Source of the DNA: Octopus sinensis
Lineage: Eukaryota
DNA: 64,000 nucleotides
Direction: 5' to 3'
Assembly: GCF_006345805.1 (NCBI RefSeq)
Contig: NC_043006.1
Location: forward strand, 104,904,001 to 104,968,000
Part shown: piece after piece, positions 31,051 through 41,412 of the stretch
Position numbering within the stretch: the stretch's first letter is position 1
Layout of the letters: each line of letters begins with the position of its first letter
Notes under the pieces: generated by a model
Databases searched by the model: none
What the model was told of the DNA's origin: nothing
What the model saw: the letters and a program-made list of their open reading frames with translations, nothing else
Made by a program: the position numbers and the translations under genes

Positions 31051-32308
31051 CGAGGGGCGTTCAATAAGTAATGCCCCTGACCCACTTGCCTTTGTTTGAT
31101 CTAGCTGATCTATTATTTATATCTCTATAGATTAAGTGGCAAATTACAGCTCTGAGATAATTGTAGTTTCTGATTTACAGGTGTTTGAACTGAGTCAAGT
31201 GTGAAATGGAGCCTGTTGAGTGTCGAGCAGTGATCTGGTTTTTGTATTTGAAAGGACGCACACCACGGAAGACTTTTGATGAAATGAAAGTAACTTATGG
31301 TGATGATGCCCCATCATATGACCTTGTAAAACGCAGGCATCGTGAATTCAAACATAGTCCGAACTCTGTGGAAACAGCTCCCAGATCTGGTCGCCCCCAT
31401 CTGCCGTTGATGATACGTCTGTCCTTCAAGTTGAGGCTGCCATTTTGGAAGGTCAACGCATAACTATTCGCCAAATAGCCCATGACGTCAAGATTAGTAC
31501 CGGGTCTGTGGAAACTATCATTCATGATCATTTGCATATGCAAAAGGCGTCTGCCAGATGGATTTCCAGGTTGCTCACACCTTTCCAGAAGCAAGAACGC
31601 GTTGAGTGCTCGAGGGTGAATTTGGAGATGTGCCAAGAAGATGAGTCAAATTTTTTCAAAAGACTGATAACACAGAATGAAACCTGGGTCCATCACTATG
31701 ATCCATAGACCAAAGCCCAGTCAATGCAGTGAAAGCACCGTGACTCACCTCCTCCAAAGAAGGCAAGGGTGCAGCCCTCCGCTGACAAGTTTATGCTCAC
31801 AGTCTTCTGGGACCAGGACGGAGTAGTGATGACAGATTTCCTGGCAAAGAGTACCACAATTACAGGAGCCTATTATGCTTCACTTTTGAGGAAATTAAGA
31901 GAAGCTATCAAAATCAAGAGGCAGGGCAAGATCAGCAAAGGCATCCTCCTCCTGCAGGACAACGCTCCGGTCCACAACTCGCTTGTCACCAGATCAGAAG
32001 CACAGGCGTGCAGCTATGAACTCCTCCTCTTGCACCCTCTGATTTTCACCTTTTCCCAGCCATGAAGTGGATTTTGAAAGGAAAGCGTTTCCCAGATGAT
32101 GCAGCCTTGATTTCTGAAGTCACGTCGTGGTTGGAGGACCAAGCTGGGGTCTTCTACAAAAACGGTCTCCAGAGCTGTATCAAACGATGGGAGAAATGCA
32201 TAACTCTGGGTAGTTTCAATGTAGGAAAAGACTAATAATTGTGCCAAGTGTCGTTGCTCTACTGCTATGGGAAGTGGGTCAGGGGCATTACTTATTGAAC
32301 GCCCCTCG
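31051..32308 (+). mobile_element. Full-length mariner transposon (irritans-like), transposase pseudogenised
   Basis: Perfect 37-bp TIRs cgaggggcgttcaataagtaatgcccctgacccactt; TA TSD. ORF remains 31206-32235: RAVI.FLYLKG, ARWISRLL, ITQNETWVHHYDP, LQDNAPVH. The YSPDLAP region is deleted; stops and frameshifts present. Confidence 0.95.
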
Positions 32309-32465
32309 TAGTTTCATATAAAAATCAGTGTACATTTAAACACAAAAGAGGTAAGCCTTAACAGGTTGCCTTACATGCTAGAAGGAACAGTCAAAAAAGT
32401 CCAAACCACAGTTAAGAGCAATTTCGAAGGGAATGAAGAATATAAACATTTACCATGTTTTACAG

Positions 32466-32533
32466 CCGGGCGTTTGGTTTCGAACTTTAATTAGCAAATA
32501 AAATAATTTGCAAGGCGAAGTTCTCATCAGCGG
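32466..32533 (-). ncRNA. Type I hammerhead motif with extended helix II (cleavage triplet mutated)
   Basis: CCG-CTGATGA-GAACTT..GCAAAT tatttt ATTTGC..AAGTTC-GAAAC-caaac-GcC-CGG. Flank resembles the 33806 element. Confidence 0.6.
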
Positions 32534-32759
32534 ATACACATAAATTAGAGACAAAATACCACGTGTATCTTATCCTTATATATTAAAATATCTGTGGTGG
32601 CGATCTTTGATGTACTTATTCGCCACAACTTTCTCTCACTCTTTCTTCTGTTGGCCTGCTCGCTTAAGAAGCGGAGTGGCGTCATCTGAGGGCTAAAACA
32701 ATGCGAAGCACATTGTGACCAGCGATGTGTTGTAACATCTGATAGTCTGGTCGGTCACG

Positions 32760-32813
<54 letters not shown>

Positions 32814-33771
32814 CGATGTTTATCATTCAATATACAGGTGTTTGTGTGGGTATATACTTGTGTGTGTGCGTATATCCATGTATGTATGTTAATGTGTAAT
32901 TTAGGCATTGCCTTCGCAATCACGTGTCCAGGTCTCTGATCTTGGACATAAAGTTTGCAATAAGTTCAAGAATTGCTACATTACGTGATTCTGAGTATGT
33001 AAGCGTAATCGTTCGAGAGCATGCTCTATCAGCAAATGCTTAGATAAATAGCTGGCATGCTGAGCAAGGATCTTTTTCTTAGTAACTAAAGTATTATTAG
33101 TACCGAAAAGCAATATACATATCTTACTTAAAGTGGATATATTAATATAAAGACTAAATATTGTGCTCTTCGTCTTGAGAAGCCATCACGTATATCTGTA
33201 GAGTACTAAAAAGCACAGAAGTATCAGCAGCGAACGAAAATTTGTTAGAATTTTCCTTTATAGCTGCCTGATAGTTTTTGTCTCATGTAGATACTTCTTT
33301 GCTTTGTAGCTCTATAAATCTATATCACATGGCTTCTGAAGACGAATACGGCAGTATAGTAGCTTTGTGTTTGTATTTTCACGTTACGAAAAACAGAGAT
33401 TGTTTTACGATACTAGTAATTCTTCCGCCGCTAATACTGCATATGTATATACACACATGCGGTGTACCATTGGCAACCTGATATTGTAGTGGCGACAATA
33501 TCTTCTAAGTGAAAGAAATTTCTGGGTGTTAGATGATTGAAACAGTTAGTGAAAGAATAAACAAAGTGCTCTGAATATATGCTTTAAATACATCTTAGTT
33601 TTTACGCATTATAAAGATCTTAATATTAGGCGCGGCTGTGTGGTAAGAAGCTTGCTTTCCACCCACATGGTTCCGGGTTTAGCCCAGCTGTGTCTTCTAC
33701 TATAGCCTCGGGCCGAATAAAGCCTTGTGGGTGGAATTGGTAGACGGGAATAGAAAGAAGTCCATCGTATG

Positions 33772-33803
<32 letters not shown>

Positions 33804-33805
33804 AT

Positions 33806-34598
33806 ATACTAAGCAATAAGGGTTTAGCAACGAGTTGCCTTACCACATACCGAATTTAGAAATAGCAGTCAAAGGGTTATAGCTATTTCTTCTACTAAAA
33901 AGGGAGATCTCAGTAAAAACAGCATTTGGAAGGCAGACACAAACAGGTAAGAGAGAATGAATTGACTGCAATCTATCATACATTTTTTTAGTTATCCACG
34001 GACGTACGTTTCGAAATCAAGTTTTAAGGAAAGCATAAGAATTAAATATTAAATATTAAATAATTCTATCTTACCGAAACTTCTTTTCTCTTCAGCGTAG
34101 AATACTATAATCATAAATGATTATATATTGAATTTTGAGATACCAGAAGGCACCAACTCAACTCAGTATCAGAGCGAGCTAGAATCCGCAACTGGTATCA
34201 CCGAATTCAATTTGTGAATGAAACGATTGTGTCAACAGCCCCTTCCCACCCGCGTGTAGCCAAAACAAGATGCTGTGGTCATCTACTGAGATAAAATATG
34301 GTTATCCGTAATAATGAAGGGTGAAATTAATTAATTTGGAAAAATTATCAATTACACCAAGTAGTCTTCGGCATGTAAAAGCCTCATTCGAGGAAAATTT
34401 AAGTAATACTAAGCAATAAGGGTTTAGCAACGAGTTGCCTTACCACATACCGAATTTAGAAATAGCAGTCAAAGGGTTATAGCTATTTCTTCTACTAAAA
34501 AGGGAGATCTCAGTAAAAACAGCATTTGGAAGGCAGACACAAACAGGTAAGAGAGAATGAATTGACTGCAATCTATCATACATTTTTTTAGTTATCCA
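33806..34598 (-). mobile_element. Young non-autonomous PLE/retrozyme-like element: 600-bp unit with identical 193-bp direct repeats
   Basis: 33806-33998 is identical to 34406-34598. Non-coding, inserted into the (TA)n tract of a SINE family A copy, and contains an HHR. Confidence 0.85.
33989..34107 (-). ncRNA. Type I hammerhead ribozyme with ~75-nt helix II and palindromic helix III loop
   Basis: CTACG-CTGAAGA-GAAA..long hairpin..TTTC-GAAAC-GTAC-GTC/CGTGG. Predicted cleavage between 34001 and 34000. Confidence 0.8.
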
Positions 34599-35829
34599 TT
34601 TTTTAGTTTATATATATATATATATAATATATATATATATATGCATATGTTTGTGTTTGTGTTTGTGTGTTCCGTTGTTGGTGTGTTTACGTCCCCGTGA
34701 GCTAGCGGTTCGGCAAAAGAGAAGAGACCGATAAGAAAAGTAGCAGGTTTACAAAGAATAAATCCCTGGGTCGATCTGTTCGATAAAATGCGGTGCTCCA
34801 GCATGGCCGCAGTCAAATTACTGTAACAGCGAAAAAAATAAAAGAATATATATATACATATACACACATAAACACACACGCATATATATATATATATATA
34901 AAACAAACACACACACACATATAAATATATATACACATATATACATACATCCATATACATATACATATATATGTGTGTGTGTGTGTGCATATGTGTACAT
35001 ATATGTATGCTTGCACATTTATATATACATTCACACATGCGCATGTGCAAGCAGAAATACACAGATATATAAAAGTAAAAGAATTTACAAAGGTATGGCC
35101 ACGAAAGTGTACTCTGGAAATAATTGTAAGCAACACCACACTCTGTTATTGAATACATATATATATATATATATATATATTTCAGCTCAAGGAATTCTTG
35201 TAGAAAATTCTCATCGAAATTTATATCATGCACAATAGAACAGTCCTGGTATAATTTTGGAGACAAGAGAAGTAATAGAATCTACTTTTCCTGCAGATGT
35301 GAAGATATCTTCCAATTTCAGCATGAAGGAGATGTTATATATGGGCAAATGAATCGAATAATGTAACTCTTCTACATTAACCATAGATATTATTTGTAAA
35401 ATCAGTTGAGTTATGAAATATAATTTTTGAGATGGAGAAAGCATACAATTTAGTTTTCCTGCAGCTGTGAACATGTCTTACAAATTCGGAGAGAACGAGA
35501 TATCTATGGGCAACTGCATCGAGTCATAGAATTTGTCTATATTAAGCATAAATATGCGTTAATACCAATAATCTTTGGTGGGCGAATACAACTATATTAT
35601 TAAAATTCTATGTAAGAATTTGGAAAAGCTAACTCTTTCAAGCAAACAAAGAGCACGGCTAGCACAAAGCTTACAGATATAATCTGTAAACGGAAGGGTA
35701 AAAATATACAACTCGTTCTTGAAGTTTGATAATTAACTATTAACGTTGTTATTATTTATATTTTCCAATCACGAAGCGTGGTTTATTTAGTTGGAACCTG
35801 CTCGCCATACTTGCTAGGAGATGAACCCT

Positions 35830-37389: not shown

Positions 37390-38851
37390 CCGGTAACAAG
37401 GTGGAAACAAGAGTACTCAAATACCAGAGGTAGAGTAATATGCTTTATTTAAAAACAGCAAAAAAATAACAAAAGCTGTTACTCGGAGTCTCACGTTCCC
37501 GTCGTCGGACAGTTTTGTTAAAATAGAACATATGTTAAACACTAGATAAAGGATCACCTTTAAAAATTGATTTCTTTCATTGGTCCTTTCAAATAACGGT
37601 CTTAAGCATGCGATAAGCAAGATAAACAAAATAAATGCATTCAATATAAATTATAAAATATAAAAATCGAGGAAAAACCTTAAATCGAAGAACGGATTCA
37701 AAATACATATTGTCATTAATTATATATGAAATATAATTCGATTAATACAATTAATACATTAAAGATTAAAATATTTCACAAGACTATATACGCATACTAA
37801 ACCATCAATATACATATATGCATCAAAATACAAAGATAGATGTGCACAGACCACATACATATGCAGACATATATAAGCAAGACGTAAATATACACACAAA
37901 TACACGTATACATATGTATACGCAATCTTGCCCGCATGCAAATATCACTTGGTCTATACATATAGACAAGTAGTAAAACATAGAGAGGGGGAGGAAAAAG
38001 AAAAAGAAAATGTAACGACCTTATAAGCAACAGATAGCTAAGGAAGTGAGTAAGAGAAGGAAAAGGGGCGTACAGTTACGGGACCCTATACAAGGAACGA
38101 ATAGGGGGAGAAAAATTACGAAAGAAAGACATCTGAATATGCGTAACGAACGTTCACAAAAGAAAATTACGTATACGTGTGTATATAAAAGTATATATTA
38201 GCAGTAAATACACATATAAGAACACATATATAAATATATAGAGATAAGTACGTAAATATACATCCACACAAATTCAAGTGAATACATGCATACATATACA
38301 TTCATGTATGTATGCGCATAAGTATAAACATATACGCTTACTTACACATATACATAGGCGCATACATACGAATACATATGCATGCCAACAATACAAATAT
38401 TCACATAAAAACATGTCTAGGTCCTGACCTATATACAAACATTATTTAAAAATTGCTGAGTGTATTATAATAATATTTAGATAAAATACATGCAAAATAT
38501 AACACCCTAATATCGAATTATCTATAAATTAAACGATAAAAATGGGTTATTAAAATAGAATAAAGTGCAAATAAAAGCAGAGTCCTAAACAAGAAAATAG
38601 TAATAATATTTTTATATAACGGTCGAAGGTTTTCCTCAAGAAATATGTCGAAATATATACAAAAAACTTTGCGATGCGTAATAAATCATGCATAATACGA
38701 AACAATCCAACCGTGCGATCAAAAACTAGTCCAGGAATAAAAAATATACGCTATTCATATGGGATATTGCTTGTCGACATTTTAAATTTAGTTGTGTGTC
38801 TGCAGAAATTCAAGAGTACGCTTCTTTGATTTAAAGAATTATCGTCCTTTA
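37390..38851 (-). mobile_element. Penelope-like element 3' remnant (ORF C-terminus, 3' UTR, terminal HHR variant at 37476-37512)
   Basis: Minus strand LLKDDNSLNQRSVLLNFCRHTTKFK* resembles the PLE LN.RSEL...CRH..KF C-terminus. CTGT-CCGACGA-cgggaacgt-GAgAC-tccga-GTA-ACAG; AATAAA downstream. Confidence 0.6.
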
Positions 38852-38879
38852 ATAATTCTTTAAATCAAAGAAGCGAACT

Positions 38880-41412
38880 CTTGAAATCCTGGAACTTTGC
38901 GATGAACATGGACTTTACATCGCAAGCACTCATTTTATGCACAAAGGGGATCACACAACGACGTGGATGCATCCAAGGTCTAAAGTTTTGCACTTGCTGG
39001 ATTATGTCATCATCCGCAAGCGTGGCATGTATGACATTTGTAATGTCAAGTCCTCTCATGGATCGGGATGCTGGACAGACCACAGTCTAGTGCGAGCAAA
39101 GTTCCAGATGATGATTAGAGTGAAAGAGAAAGAGGGCCAGTCAGCATTCCTCGGCGTCTGAATATCCACAAGATGCATGATACTGTGGTTGAGGAAAGAG
39201 CTTCAAAATGGGCAGATTTTCGAGACCATGTTCGTCAATGTGCTGCTGAAACACTGAGATATGCTACTGACAGACACAGAGACTGGTTTGATGAAAATGA
39301 TGCTCAAGTTCAGCGACTATTGTCTGTAAAGCGCTGTATTCACAGTGTATTGCTTCACAGTGGACTTTCTGCTGTGCAGCGAAATCTAGGACTTGCCCAA
39401 TATAGCAGTGTAAAATCACTACCGCAGCGATCTCTCAGGAAGATGCAGAACACTTGGTTGGTGGATCTTGCTCATGATGTTTAGGCTGCTGCTGATGCAA
39501 ATGACAGCAAGAAGCTTTACCATCATATGAAGCAAATTTATGTGCCTAAGAGCTCTACATGGGCTCCTTTGCATTCCTAGGAGTTTCCACTCTATTTACT
39601 AAATCAACAGAAATCACAGGTCGCTGGATCGAGCACTTCTCTGCATCATGAATGAGTTGTGGATTTATTGTCTCCTTAAATTCCACGATCTCAATAGATG
39701 AAGTAATGACATCAATAAGTAAATTGAATCTTGGTAGGGCACCTGGAAATGATGGATTTTGTGCTGAGGTCTTGTGATTTGGTGGTGATTACATCATACA
39801 GCCCCTTCATGTTGTTATGCAGTCTGGAGGGATGGTGCAATGCTATTGTTCTTCCTCTCTATAAAGAAACAGAACAATGTGTGGTAACTACAGAGGTATT
39901 GCTGGCAAGCTTCTGGCAAATATTCTTCTTAGCCGCCTGAATGGGTGTCTCGTAAATGATGTCTCATCCGAATCCCAATGTGGCTTCCGATCTGGTAGAG
40001 AGACAATGGATATGACTTTCGCAGCGAGACAGATGCAGGAGAAGTGCAATTAGTAGAATATGGATCATATCTAGGTATTCATTGATCTAACGAAGGTCTT
40101 TGATACTGGAACTAGTCTTTCTATGGAAAATACTTGGCAAACTTGGATGTCCGGATCACTTTGTATCTATAATTAAATCATTTCATGATGGAATGGGGGT
40201 GGAATGGCGGATCCCATTCCTGTAGAGAATGGCGTCAAGCAGGAGGACATCCTTGCCCCAACTCTCTTTTCTTTGCACTTTGCTGCTGCTTTTACCCATG
40301 CTTTTGCTCTCTGGTTAGCTCTCTAGGAGTATATGTCAGATATAGATCTTCTGGCCGCCTCTTTAATCTGTGCCAATTTGCTGCCAATACAAAAGTTTTC
40401 CAGTCTCTTATTCGTGACCTCCTTTATGTAGATGACTGTGACTTAGTCAATCATACAGTGGACGACATGCAAATACTTATGAATTGTATTTCTGCTTCTT
40501 GCAAGGCATTTGGACTCAGCATTAGCCTGAAGAAGACTGTTGTAATGTTCCAGTATGCACCACGAATCCATATGTGGAACCAACTATCTTGGTTGAAGGA
40601 ACAATTCTGAAAGTGGTGGACAAGTTTGTCTACCTGGGCAGCACACTCAGACGTTCTTGTTCCCTGGAGTATAAAATATCTTTCAGGCTGCAGAGACCAG
40701 TCAGTTCCTTCCGTCTCTTCAGCCTTGTCCCAGGTCCCAGCATGGCATCACAAGGCAAACGAAAATTGCTGTGTACCGTGTATGTGTACTGATATCGGTC
40801 CTTTACTCATGTGAGACGTGGGCCCTTTACAAACATCATGTAAAGGTCCTTCAACGCTTTCATCAGCAATATCTCAAGCACATTCTGAATGTCAGCTGAA
40901 CCTTAAAAACTCCAGACACACAGGTCCTGAGGACAGCTGATATCTTGACTATTGAGGTGATGGTGCACAAACACTGGTTACGTTGGACTGGACACCTTAT
41001 TAGAATGAAGGATAGAAGGATCCATAAGCATATACTATAAGGGAAACTTGTGAATGGAAAGAGACCCTGGCATAAACCAAGGCTGCGATATCTGTGATAT
41101 CCAGGAGACTGACTGAAAGAACAATGCCTGTCATCGCCACAGATGGAGGAAGCAGGTGAAGTAGTAGGTAGACACTTGAGAGAGCACGTGTTCAGCATGA
41201 AGAACTTAAGCGTGTAGCTCGGAGGCACATTGCTAGTGTAGTGAATGAGGGAAAGCTTGGTCTGCAATGTTTACAGTCGTGTATGGTTGTCAAGAGCAGG
41301 GCTCATTAGCCACCAATGGAGTCGCAAATGCAAGTTATAAGTTAGTCCTAGAGCGCACAATGTTCCTGAAAGTCAGCAATGGTCTTCCTCGGTCACGAGT
41401 GGACCGCCATCA
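38880..41412 (+). mobile_element. RTE-clade LINE, 5'-truncated pseudogenised ORF
   Basis: TTWMHPRSKVLHLLDYVI; DWFDEND; ESQCGFRSGRETMDM; GVKQEDILAPTLF; LLYVDD; FVYLGS; RWTGHL; C-terminal zinc-finger-like remnant. Confidence 0.92.

What the first reader, a model, noticed from the sequence alone, without database searches (positions are those of the whole stretch)
33806..34598. Young 600-nt hammerhead element whose end coincides with the self-cleavage site (retrozyme-like)
Seen: a non-coding unit of exactly 600 bp with two identical 193-bp direct repeats, inserted in (TA)n. The minus strand carries a complete type I HHR (CUGAAGA / GAAAC-GUAC-GUC, paired helix I) with an unusually long ~75-nt helix II. 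The element's 5' end on the minus strand (34598) falls within 2 nt of the equivalent cleavage position (34600). Known: minimal HHRs with palindromic helix III loops occur in Penelope-like element termini and metazoan non-LTR retrozymes, can cleave as dimers, and some yield circular RNAs. Inference: this copy was reverse-transcribed from an HHR-processed (possibly circular) 600-nt RNA by a PLE RT acting in trans, i.e. a recently active cephalopod retrozyme family.
Basis: partly seen in the sequence, partly recalled or inferred. Interest (0 to 1): 0.85.

Follow-up and report, generated by a model that had tools for sequence, protein, structure and literature searches.

The report
Hammerhead repeat spread by Penelope machinery
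This is one copy of a common, protein-free repeat that carries a hammerhead self-cutting RNA motif and was likely pasted into the genome by a Penelope-type jumping gene, a known kind of element; this copy stops two letters from the predicted cut, but most other copy ends that could be seen do not.

Summary
Observation confirmed, with corrections. It holds one type I hammerhead of canonical, not minimal, stem sizes, with a 76-nt helix II. Public runs show a high-copy family whose 3' ends sit at two clusters about 100 nt apart in (TA)n (a Penelope-like signature), with transcripts of both strands that look A-to-I hyper-edited. The hammerhead strand folds far better than shuffles (z about -6 to -9), and family variants avoid breaking that fold (7 of 34; 13.4 expected). 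The link between ends and cut site is weak at family level: 1 of 5 other 5'-side junctions lies at the cut, and DNA depth shows no step there. A simple circle or simple monomer cannot alone explain this copy; a cut, more-than-unit or nicked-circle RNA can. Cleavage, circles and the autonomous partner are untested. The scan has noted this kind of element many times before, also as 600/602-nt arrays in this genome. New member of a known kind.

The parts
33627..33775 (+). Left half of an older dispersed repeat that was interrupted by the insertion (target element)
   Evidence: 8 of 10 other right-half hits in the window have this left half 16-329 nt upstream in the same orientation; here the gap is about 900 nt
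33771..33807 (.). (TA)n target, left side; 3' junction of the element with AT microhomology
   Evidence: sequence
33806..33998 (-). 3' copy of the 193-nt direct repeat (pseudo-LTR-like); 33806 is the inferred start of reverse transcription
   Evidence: equivalent 3' end with (TA)n flank at 34406 in run X17
33989..34107 (-). Type I hammerhead: helix I 34107-34096 with 34000-33989, core 34095-34089 and 34012-34009, helix III 34009-34002, predicted cut between 34001 and 34000
   Evidence: helix I pair probabilities 0.82-0.97, helix II base 0.93-0.97, monomer helix III 0.03-0.04
34013..34088 (-). 76-nt helix II: 4-bp base, internal loop, then an AU-rich extension whose tip is a 7-nt repeat that varies in number among copies
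   Evidence: 31 of 1000 shuffles fold as well; 7-nt insertion after 34056 in all four runs
33999..34405 (-). Non-repeated 407 nt of the 600-nt unit; no ORF; part of a branched self-paired fold; family 3'-end cluster at 34296-34310
34406..34598 (-). 5' copy of the 193-nt repeat; ends 2 nt short of the position equivalent to the cut
34599..34608 (-). 10-nt slipped duplication of 34583-34593 joined through a 2-nt microhomology; true 5' boundary of the insert
   Evidence: sequence
34609..34642 (.). (TA)n target, right side; no target-site duplication can be read in it
34672..34848 (+). Right half of the interrupted dispersed repeat
   Evidence: joints linking left and right halves at other loci

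Best explanation
This is a 1.32-unit copy of a high-copy, ORF-less 600-nt repeat with a type I hammerhead motif, likely pasted into a (TA)n microsatellite by the enzyme of an autonomous Penelope-like element, probably from an RNA whose 5' end was the hammerhead cut. Steps: (1) shown: copies end 3' at two clusters (34296-34310 and 34400-34406) against (TA)n; inferred: these are two internal start sites of target-primed reverse transcription. (2) Shown by geometry: from 33806 the copy runs 195 nt to the cut site, crosses it, runs one full unit and stops 2 nt before the cut site again. (3) Inferred: the template was either a tandem transcript cut at one hammerhead but not the next, or a cut monomer held shut by helix I (a nicked circle) whose nick was jumped once. 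(4) Inferred: on running out of template the new DNA slipped back 16 nt and recopied 10 nt before joining the target. (5) This copy has one hammerhead, so it cannot release a unit-length RNA by itself (follows from the anatomy). I put family identity and Penelope-type mobilisation at about 0.85 and the cut-end template for this copy at about 0.55-0.6.
For: Anatomy. High copy: 5822 and 2319 contigs laid on 600 nt in runs X1 and X2; 19 of 24 listed runs hold half or more of its words, 12 studies. 3' ends: 7 of 14 'before' rows have a (TA)n flank and all 7 fall in the two clusters; depth rises at 34300 in 4 of 4 runs (ratios 1.73, 1.38, 3.09, 2.08). Empty-site logic from the interrupted flank repeat. 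No ORF over 58 codons. RNA-level structure: hammerhead strand -164.5 kcal/mol, z -8.8 (0 of 25 shuffles) against -134.6, z -3.4 for the other strand; circular fold -157.9 vs -119.3 +/- 6.7 (0 of 40); 7 of 34 DNA variants break a predicted pair against 13.4 expected, P 0.005; 3 of 3 variants in proximal helix I keep pairing; pair 34144-34194 shows G-C, G-U and A-U states; the helix III loop variant keeps a dimer helix through G-U. Cut-end support: window end at -2 (about 5 in 600 by chance, but chosen after the fact); one X1 contig joins 34000 exactly to 34092, the strand held next to it by helix I. Literature: partial tandems, tails, (TA)n bias (PMC8557442), two internal start sites (PMC11167929), retrozymes as Penelope derivatives (10.64898/2026.07.22.740005).
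Against: Only 1 of 5 other 5'-side junctions (34000, 33939, 34060, 34062, 34497) is at the cut; 0 of 10 'behind' loose-end rows lie at 33990-34010 (24 of 241 rows shown). DNA depth has no step at 34000 (0.89, 1.07; one RNA-like run 1.87, the other 0.98); the tool warns that contig depth is crude. The 34000-34092 joint is one contig with 29 letters on its short side. Contigs of the RNA-like runs span the cut site (X16 records 9, 10; X17 record 17). In the only purified Penelope system, cleavage was not needed and no reads ended at the cut (PMC11167929); 8 of 9 Xenopus retrozyme dimers did not cleave in vitro (10.64898/2026.07.22.740005). Helix I result alone is weak (7 of 12 transitions would keep pairing; 3 of 3 has P about 0.16); variants at 33989, 34038, 34235, 34342 break predicted pairs. 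3 of 38 control stretches of the window also reached z below -6 in a first pass, 2 stayed at about -6.5 to -7.3 on retest. The two 3' clusters are about 100 nt apart, not the 30-40 nt of described tails. No autonomous partner found.
Confidence: 0.55

Rival explanations
1. Same family and same Penelope-type mobiliser, but the template was a sealed circle or an uncut tandem transcript, and this copy's 5' end is an ordinary truncation, or a stall at the stable helix I / core junction, that happens to lie near the cut.
For: No depth step at the cut in DNA runs; 4 of 5 other 5'-side junctions lie elsewhere; RNA-like contigs span the site; the two repeats are identical, as expected from one molecule read round; uncut RNA was the main substrate in PMC11167929; the scan reads many windows, so a 1-in-120 coincidence will be picked now and then.
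Against: End within 2 nt of the cut; slip-back duplication fits running out of template; a second, unselected junction lies exactly at the cut.
Confidence: 0.33
2. The insert is the truncated end (pseudo-LTR plus 3' UTR) of an autonomous Penelope-like element, and the hammerhead is a passenger with no life as a separate RNA.
For: 193-nt direct repeats are the size of described pseudo-LTRs (181-218 bp in PMC3846280); (TA)n targets and two 3' ends are those of Penelope-like elements.
Against: The period closes at 600 nt with no ORF; contigs run across the closure in X1 and X2 and one 599-nt contig covers almost the whole permuted unit in X12; share of contigs running on into unlike sequence is 0-0.01 in the deep DNA runs; the 58-codon frame behind the cut found only two repeat-inflated hits without RT or GIY-YIG domain.
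Confidence: 0.09
3. A local duplication or an assembly artefact made the 193-nt repeat.
For: The repeats are 100% identical; no contig listed bridges this locus end to end.
Against: Both ends of the repeat coincide with the two ends of the insert; the head-to-tail closure is present in independent runs; the 3' end falls in a family cluster.
Confidence: 0.03

Closest known systems
Metazoan non-LTR retrozymes (Cervera and de la Pena 2020, PMC7229834, parts 2-4 of 6 read; Li, Clavereau and Pollet 2026, 10.64898/2026.07.22.740005, parts 1-3 of 5 read)
   Same: Non-coding repeat under 50% GC (35%), type I hammerhead with 2-bp helix III and palindromic tetraloop, highly self-paired predicted circle in which the hammerhead is free to fold, dispersed monomer copies, proposed Penelope mobiliser; 600 nt lies inside the 51-972 bp range of Li et al.
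   Different: Longer than the 150-450 bp of Cervera; helix II is 76 nt where most type I have 4-5 bp (PMC13725137 passage); this copy has one hammerhead and fails Li's 'active' definition; no circle or cleavage shown; insertion ends are readable here.
Partial-tandem insertions of endonuclease-bearing Penelope-like elements with pseudo-LTR and tail (PMC8557442 passages and section 6; PMC3846280 passages; PMC11167929 parts 1-2 of 4; PMC4209133 parts 1-2 of 4)
   Same: About 200-bp direct repeats from partial tandem, fixed 3' ends at two sites, AT-rich/(TA)n targets, no readable TSD, microhomology 5' junction, hammerhead near the repeat, trans-mobilised non-coding sequence is described.
   Different: No RT/GIY-YIG ORF; hammerhead core lies just outside the repeat and has canonical, not minimal, stems; two 3' sites about 100 nt apart rather than 30-40; no inverted 5' arm in this copy.
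Newt and axolotl satellite-2 type hammerheads that cleave as dimers (as described in PMC7229834)
   Same: Weak helix III with palindromic loop; my cofold gives an 8-bp dimer helix (-9.8 kcal/mol) against +2.4 for the monomer hairpin.
   Different: Helix III has 2 bp, as in invertebrate retrozymes that cleaved as monomers in that paper, so dimer dependence is not certain.

Membership tests
Metazoan non-LTR retrozyme | Type I hammerhead with intact core and three helices | tested here: met
Metazoan non-LTR retrozyme | Short non-coding repeat unit, GC under 50% | tested here: met
   600 nt, 35% GC, longest frame 58 codons
Metazoan non-LTR retrozyme | Many genomic copies | tested here: met
   copy number itself not measurable from contig depth
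Metazoan non-LTR retrozyme | Family forms tandem arrays with a hammerhead in each unit | tested here: inconclusive
   contigs are too short; no genome held; earlier scan notes report 600- and 602-nt arrays in this genome, identity with this family not confirmed
Metazoan non-LTR retrozyme | Highly self-paired predicted circle with free hammerhead | tested here: met
   64% paired, 0 of 40 shuffles as stable, helices I and II form; prediction only
Metazoan non-LTR retrozyme | Self-cleavage of the RNA | not testable with these tools
   needs in vitro assay
Metazoan non-LTR retrozyme | Accumulation of unit-length linear and circular RNA | not testable with these tools
   only contigs were available; they cannot show ends, strand or circles
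'Active' retrozyme locus (Li et al. 2026 definition) | [quoted passage not shown] | tested here: not met
   one hammerhead in 793 nt; this copy is not filed as an active locus, only as a monomer-class copy
Autonomous Penelope-like element | ORF with RT and GIY-YIG endonuclease | tested here: not met
Penelope-mobilised insertion | Partial tandem giving direct pseudo-LTRs | tested here: met
Penelope-mobilised insertion | Two fixed 3' ends (tail signature) | tested here: met
   clusters 34296-34310 and 34400-34406, 7 rows, depth step in 4 of 4 runs; spacing about 100 nt, longer than described tails
Penelope-mobilised insertion | AT-rich or (TA)n target | tested here: met
   window flanks; 7 of 7 flank-bearing 3' rows
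Penelope-mobilised insertion | Terminal sequence shared with an autonomous element of the same genome | not testable with these tools
   no genome held
Minimal Penelope hammerhead (min-HHR, PMC4209133) | Helix I 4-5 bp, helix II 7-8 bp with an unpaired base at its 5' end, helix III absent or reduced | tested here: not met
   helix I 6+4 bp, helix II base 4 bp starting directly after the core, helix III 2 bp

The most novel reading that the evidence does not exclude
This family records hammerhead cleavage in living cells: a fraction of its copies were reverse-transcribed from a cut but still closed 'nicked circle', whose nick the borrowed Penelope enzyme sometimes jumps, sometimes mis-jumps onto the helix I partner strand, and sometimes falls off. 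That would be genomic evidence that cut RNA is a template, which the one purified Penelope system did not show, and it would do so with a hammerhead whose 76-nt helix II hides it from Rfam.
Probability: 0.25. Interest if true: 0.65.

Novelty: new member of a known kind. Interest (0 to 1): 0.38.

Why it matters
How animal retrozymes are copied, and whether Penelope-associated hammerheads cut in cells, is proposed but not shown in the papers read here. A young high-copy family with readable 3' start sites and some 5' ends at the cut makes this countable from one genome assembly. The long helix II shows that standard hammerhead models miss such families (no Rfam hit). As a kind of element it is known, and this scan has met it repeatedly.

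Tried and rejected
Whole genome: none held, so copy ends could only be read from short contigs. Rfam: only microsatellite-driven matches. Run search: no RNA holder listed as such; two runs guessed to be RNA were laid instead. Pattern scans: 5 metagenome hits, all high-GC contigs matching only 20-31 nt, 0 viral hits; unrelated. Other copies or an autonomous partner in the window: none; 60 of 82 frames of 100 codons or more scanned with Pfam, no GIY-YIG, one weak RVT_1 at 40173-40610. The 58-codon frame behind the cut as a remnant of a Penelope ORF start: two hits, both sums of weak stretches in tandem-repeat proteins; rejected. Helix II as an intron: donor- and acceptor-like motifs exist on both strands, but no spliced joint was listed in the two RNA-like runs. 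Apparent compensatory changes in distal helix I (34104/33992, 34107/33989) rejected: they are absent from DNA runs, lie on different contigs and fit editing of opposite strands. Copy number from summed contig depth: not attempted as a figure, overlapping contigs inflate it. Look-ups of earlier findings by sequence: 0 windows twice; near this place: 0. Supplements of PMC7229834 and PMC13282606 were not read and those of the bioRxiv preprint are closed; a repeat library there could already hold this family.

Full report
Observation. The two 193-nt repeats are exact and 600 nt apart (33806-33998, 34406-34598). On the minus strand a type I hammerhead reads helix I 5' strand 34107-34096, core 34095-34089, a 76-nt helix II, GAAA at 34012-34009, a 2-bp helix III with a palindromic four-base loop, and the cut between 34001 and 34000. 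My scan of both strands of the window gave 3 hits, and only this one has a palindromic helix III. In the 793-nt transcript and in a cut monomer, helix I forms with probability 0.82-0.97 and the base of helix II with 0.93-0.97, while monomer helix III forms at 0.03-0.04; two copies cofold through an 8-bp helix III. Stem sizes next to the core fit the canonical metazoan type I of PMC4209133, not its minimal form. Rfam misses the motif. The co-linear sequence ends 2 nt short of the cut-equivalent position, but 10 further nt (34599-34608) repeat 34583-34593 with one T fewer, joined through a 2-nt microhomology.

Surroundings. The flanks are the two halves of an older dispersed repeat with an internal microsatellite: 8 of 10 other right-half hits in the window have the left half 16-329 nt upstream, against about 900 nt here. 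So the element landed in that (TA)n. No TSD can be read. The unit is 35% GC with no frame over 58 codons. No other copy and no GIY-YIG frame lies in the window (60 of 82 frames scanned). No genome is held. The host is called an octopus in earlier scan notes on this genome (unchecked); I did not test it.

Family. 20 of 24 listed runs hold the unit, 19 with half or more of its words, from 12 studies and 10 organism labels. 5822 and 2319 contigs were laid on the 600 nt in runs X1 and X2, with summed depth of 10^5-10^6 against 20-60 for several single contigs; this shows a high-copy repeat but gives no copy number. Of 24 loose-end rows shown (217 hidden), 14 are on the element's 3' side; 7 of these carry a (TA)n flank, and all 7 fall at 34296-34310 (4 rows, one with 23 contigs) or 34400-34417 (3 rows); the other 7 continue in element-like sequence. 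Depth rises at 34300 in 4 of 4 runs (1.73, 1.38, 3.09, 2.08). Two fixed 3' ends in AT-rich targets are the tail signature that PMC11167929 ties to two internal start sites of reverse transcription, and partial tandems with (TA)n bias are described for Penelope-like elements (PMC8557442). The spacing here is about 100 nt, not 30-40.

The cut-site claim. For this copy an end within 2 nt has a chance of about 5 in 600, but it was chosen after the fact. Other 5'-side junctions seen are 34000, 33939, 34060, 34062 and 34497: 1 of 5 at the cut (about 4% chance for within 2 nt, under 1% for exact). That one is a single X1 contig joining 34000 to 34092, with 29 letters on its short side; it links the first base after the cut to the strand that helix I holds beside it, as a template switch at a cut end would. 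Against: 0 of 10 'behind' rows lie at the cut, DNA depth has no step there (0.89, 1.07), the RNA-like runs disagree (1.87, 0.98), and RNA-like contigs span the site. The test has low power, since only 199 contigs per DNA run were laid in part. So most copies that reach the cut site cross it, and a minority may end there.

Mechanism. Starting at 33806 the copy runs 195 nt to the cut site, crosses it, runs a full unit and stops at the same site. A plain linear monomer would give only 195 nt; a sealed circle gives no reason to stop there. Two templates fit: a tandem transcript cut at one hammerhead and not the next, or a cut monomer held shut by helix I whose nick was jumped once (helix I does join the monomer's ends in the fold). 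The 10-nt slip-back fits running out of template. These steps are inferred. The rival, a truncation or stall near a stable helix on an uncut or circular template, remains strong (0.33): in PMC11167929 cleavage was not needed and no RNA reads ended at the cut, and 8 of 9 Xenopus dimers did not cleave in the 2026 preprint.

RNA-level evidence. The hammerhead strand folds at -164.5 kcal/mol, z -8.8 (0 of 25 shuffles), the other strand at -134.6, z -3.4; as a circle -157.9 against -119.3 +/- 6.7 (0 of 40). This is not unique in the window: 3 of 38 control stretches reached z below -6 with 6 shuffles, and 2 held on retest. Of 34 distinct DNA-supported variants taken from the rows shown (one duplicate position and the RNA-only rows dropped; 4 and 50 rows hidden), 19 are unpaired, 8 keep and 7 break a predicted pair, against 13.4 expected (P 0.005; variants are not independent). 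One of the 7 (34144) is restored by its partner's change (34194), and both changes share the same depth and contig count in X16. In the two runs guessed to be RNA, A>G and T>C places number 41 and 17 (X16) and 15 and 21 (X17) against G>A and C>T of 3 and 3, 1 and 3; the DNA runs are balanced (94:10 vs 16:16, Fisher P 3e-6). 17 of 18 rows absent from DNA (under 1%) are of these types, and all 17 have A or T upstream, none G (P 0.0007), the ADAR preference reported in PMC5625713. This reads as hyper-editing of transcripts from both strands, which is ordinary for repeats in such animals; no DNA of the same individuals was available. It shows likely transcription, not circles.

Comparison and novelty. 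The element works like a metazoan non-LTR retrozyme (PMC7229834; 10.64898/2026.07.22.740005) and lands like a Penelope-like element. This copy fails the 'active' two-hammerhead definition and is not an autonomous element. Searches for hammerhead+penelope+octopus (5 papers, 4 listed), hammerhead ribozyme+cephalopod (4 papers, 2 listed) and long helix II terms (3 papers) listed no description of this family, and the main text of a 2026 octopus repeat annotation has 0 occurrences of ribozyme or hammerhead while listing 31 recently active Penelope-like families (PMC13282606). The library lacks most subscription papers. Earlier notes of this scan describe the same kind of element many times, including 600- and 602-nt arrays in this genome; I could not confirm that they are this family.

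Papers seen: 10.64898/2026.07.22.740005 parts 1-3 of 5 (supplements closed); PMC7229834 parts 2-4 of 6; PMC11167929 parts 1-2 of 4; PMC4209133 parts 1-2 of 4; PMC8557442 passages and section 6; PMC3846280, PMC13282606, PMC13725137, PMC5625713, PMC7761336 passages only. No supplements read. Hammerhead core numbering and the cut position after GUC rest on established knowledge.

Verdict. Real feature; new member of a known kind; interest 0.38. The part worth following is a genome-wide count of 5' ends at the cut.

Noticed in passing
window 33089-33424: Imperfect fold-back (arms about 70% alike) just left of the target repeat; 33001-33600 folds at z -7.3 on the + strand and -4.3 on the - strand. 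Not identified.
   Followed up: partly
window about 32400-32545, minus strand: Degenerate hammerhead-like motif: core at 32530, a 42-nt hairpin, GAAA, but only a 4-bp helix I and a long helix III loop.
   Followed up: no
window 31733-32065: Tc1/mariner transposase fragment, PF01359, E 6e-20.
   Followed up: no
window 40173-40610: Weak reverse transcriptase match, PF00078, E 5e-4, below the curated cut-off.
   Followed up: no
window 33945-34095, plus strand: A strong donor-like site near 33947 and a pyrimidine tract with AG ending at 34095 (the reverse of the ribozyme core) could exonise antisense copies; no spliced joint listed.
   Followed up: partly
window 34116-34238 in runs X16 and X17: Most RNA-like depth here carries A34173T, which has only single-contig depth (47) in DNA run X1 and none in X2; one locus may supply most transcripts. 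T34141C reaches 104 of 121 and 118 of 183 depth in these runs and 0 in DNA, a possible highly edited site on the hammerhead strand.
   Followed up: partly
window 38401-39000 and 37801-38400: Strongly folding stretches on both strands (helix of 24-25 bp in the first), likely an inverted-repeat element.
   Followed up: no
window 34440-34470 in runs X1 and X2: Diverged contigs share the element from about 34440-34455 onward but differ before it, which may mark related families or an autonomous partner sharing this segment.
   Followed up: no
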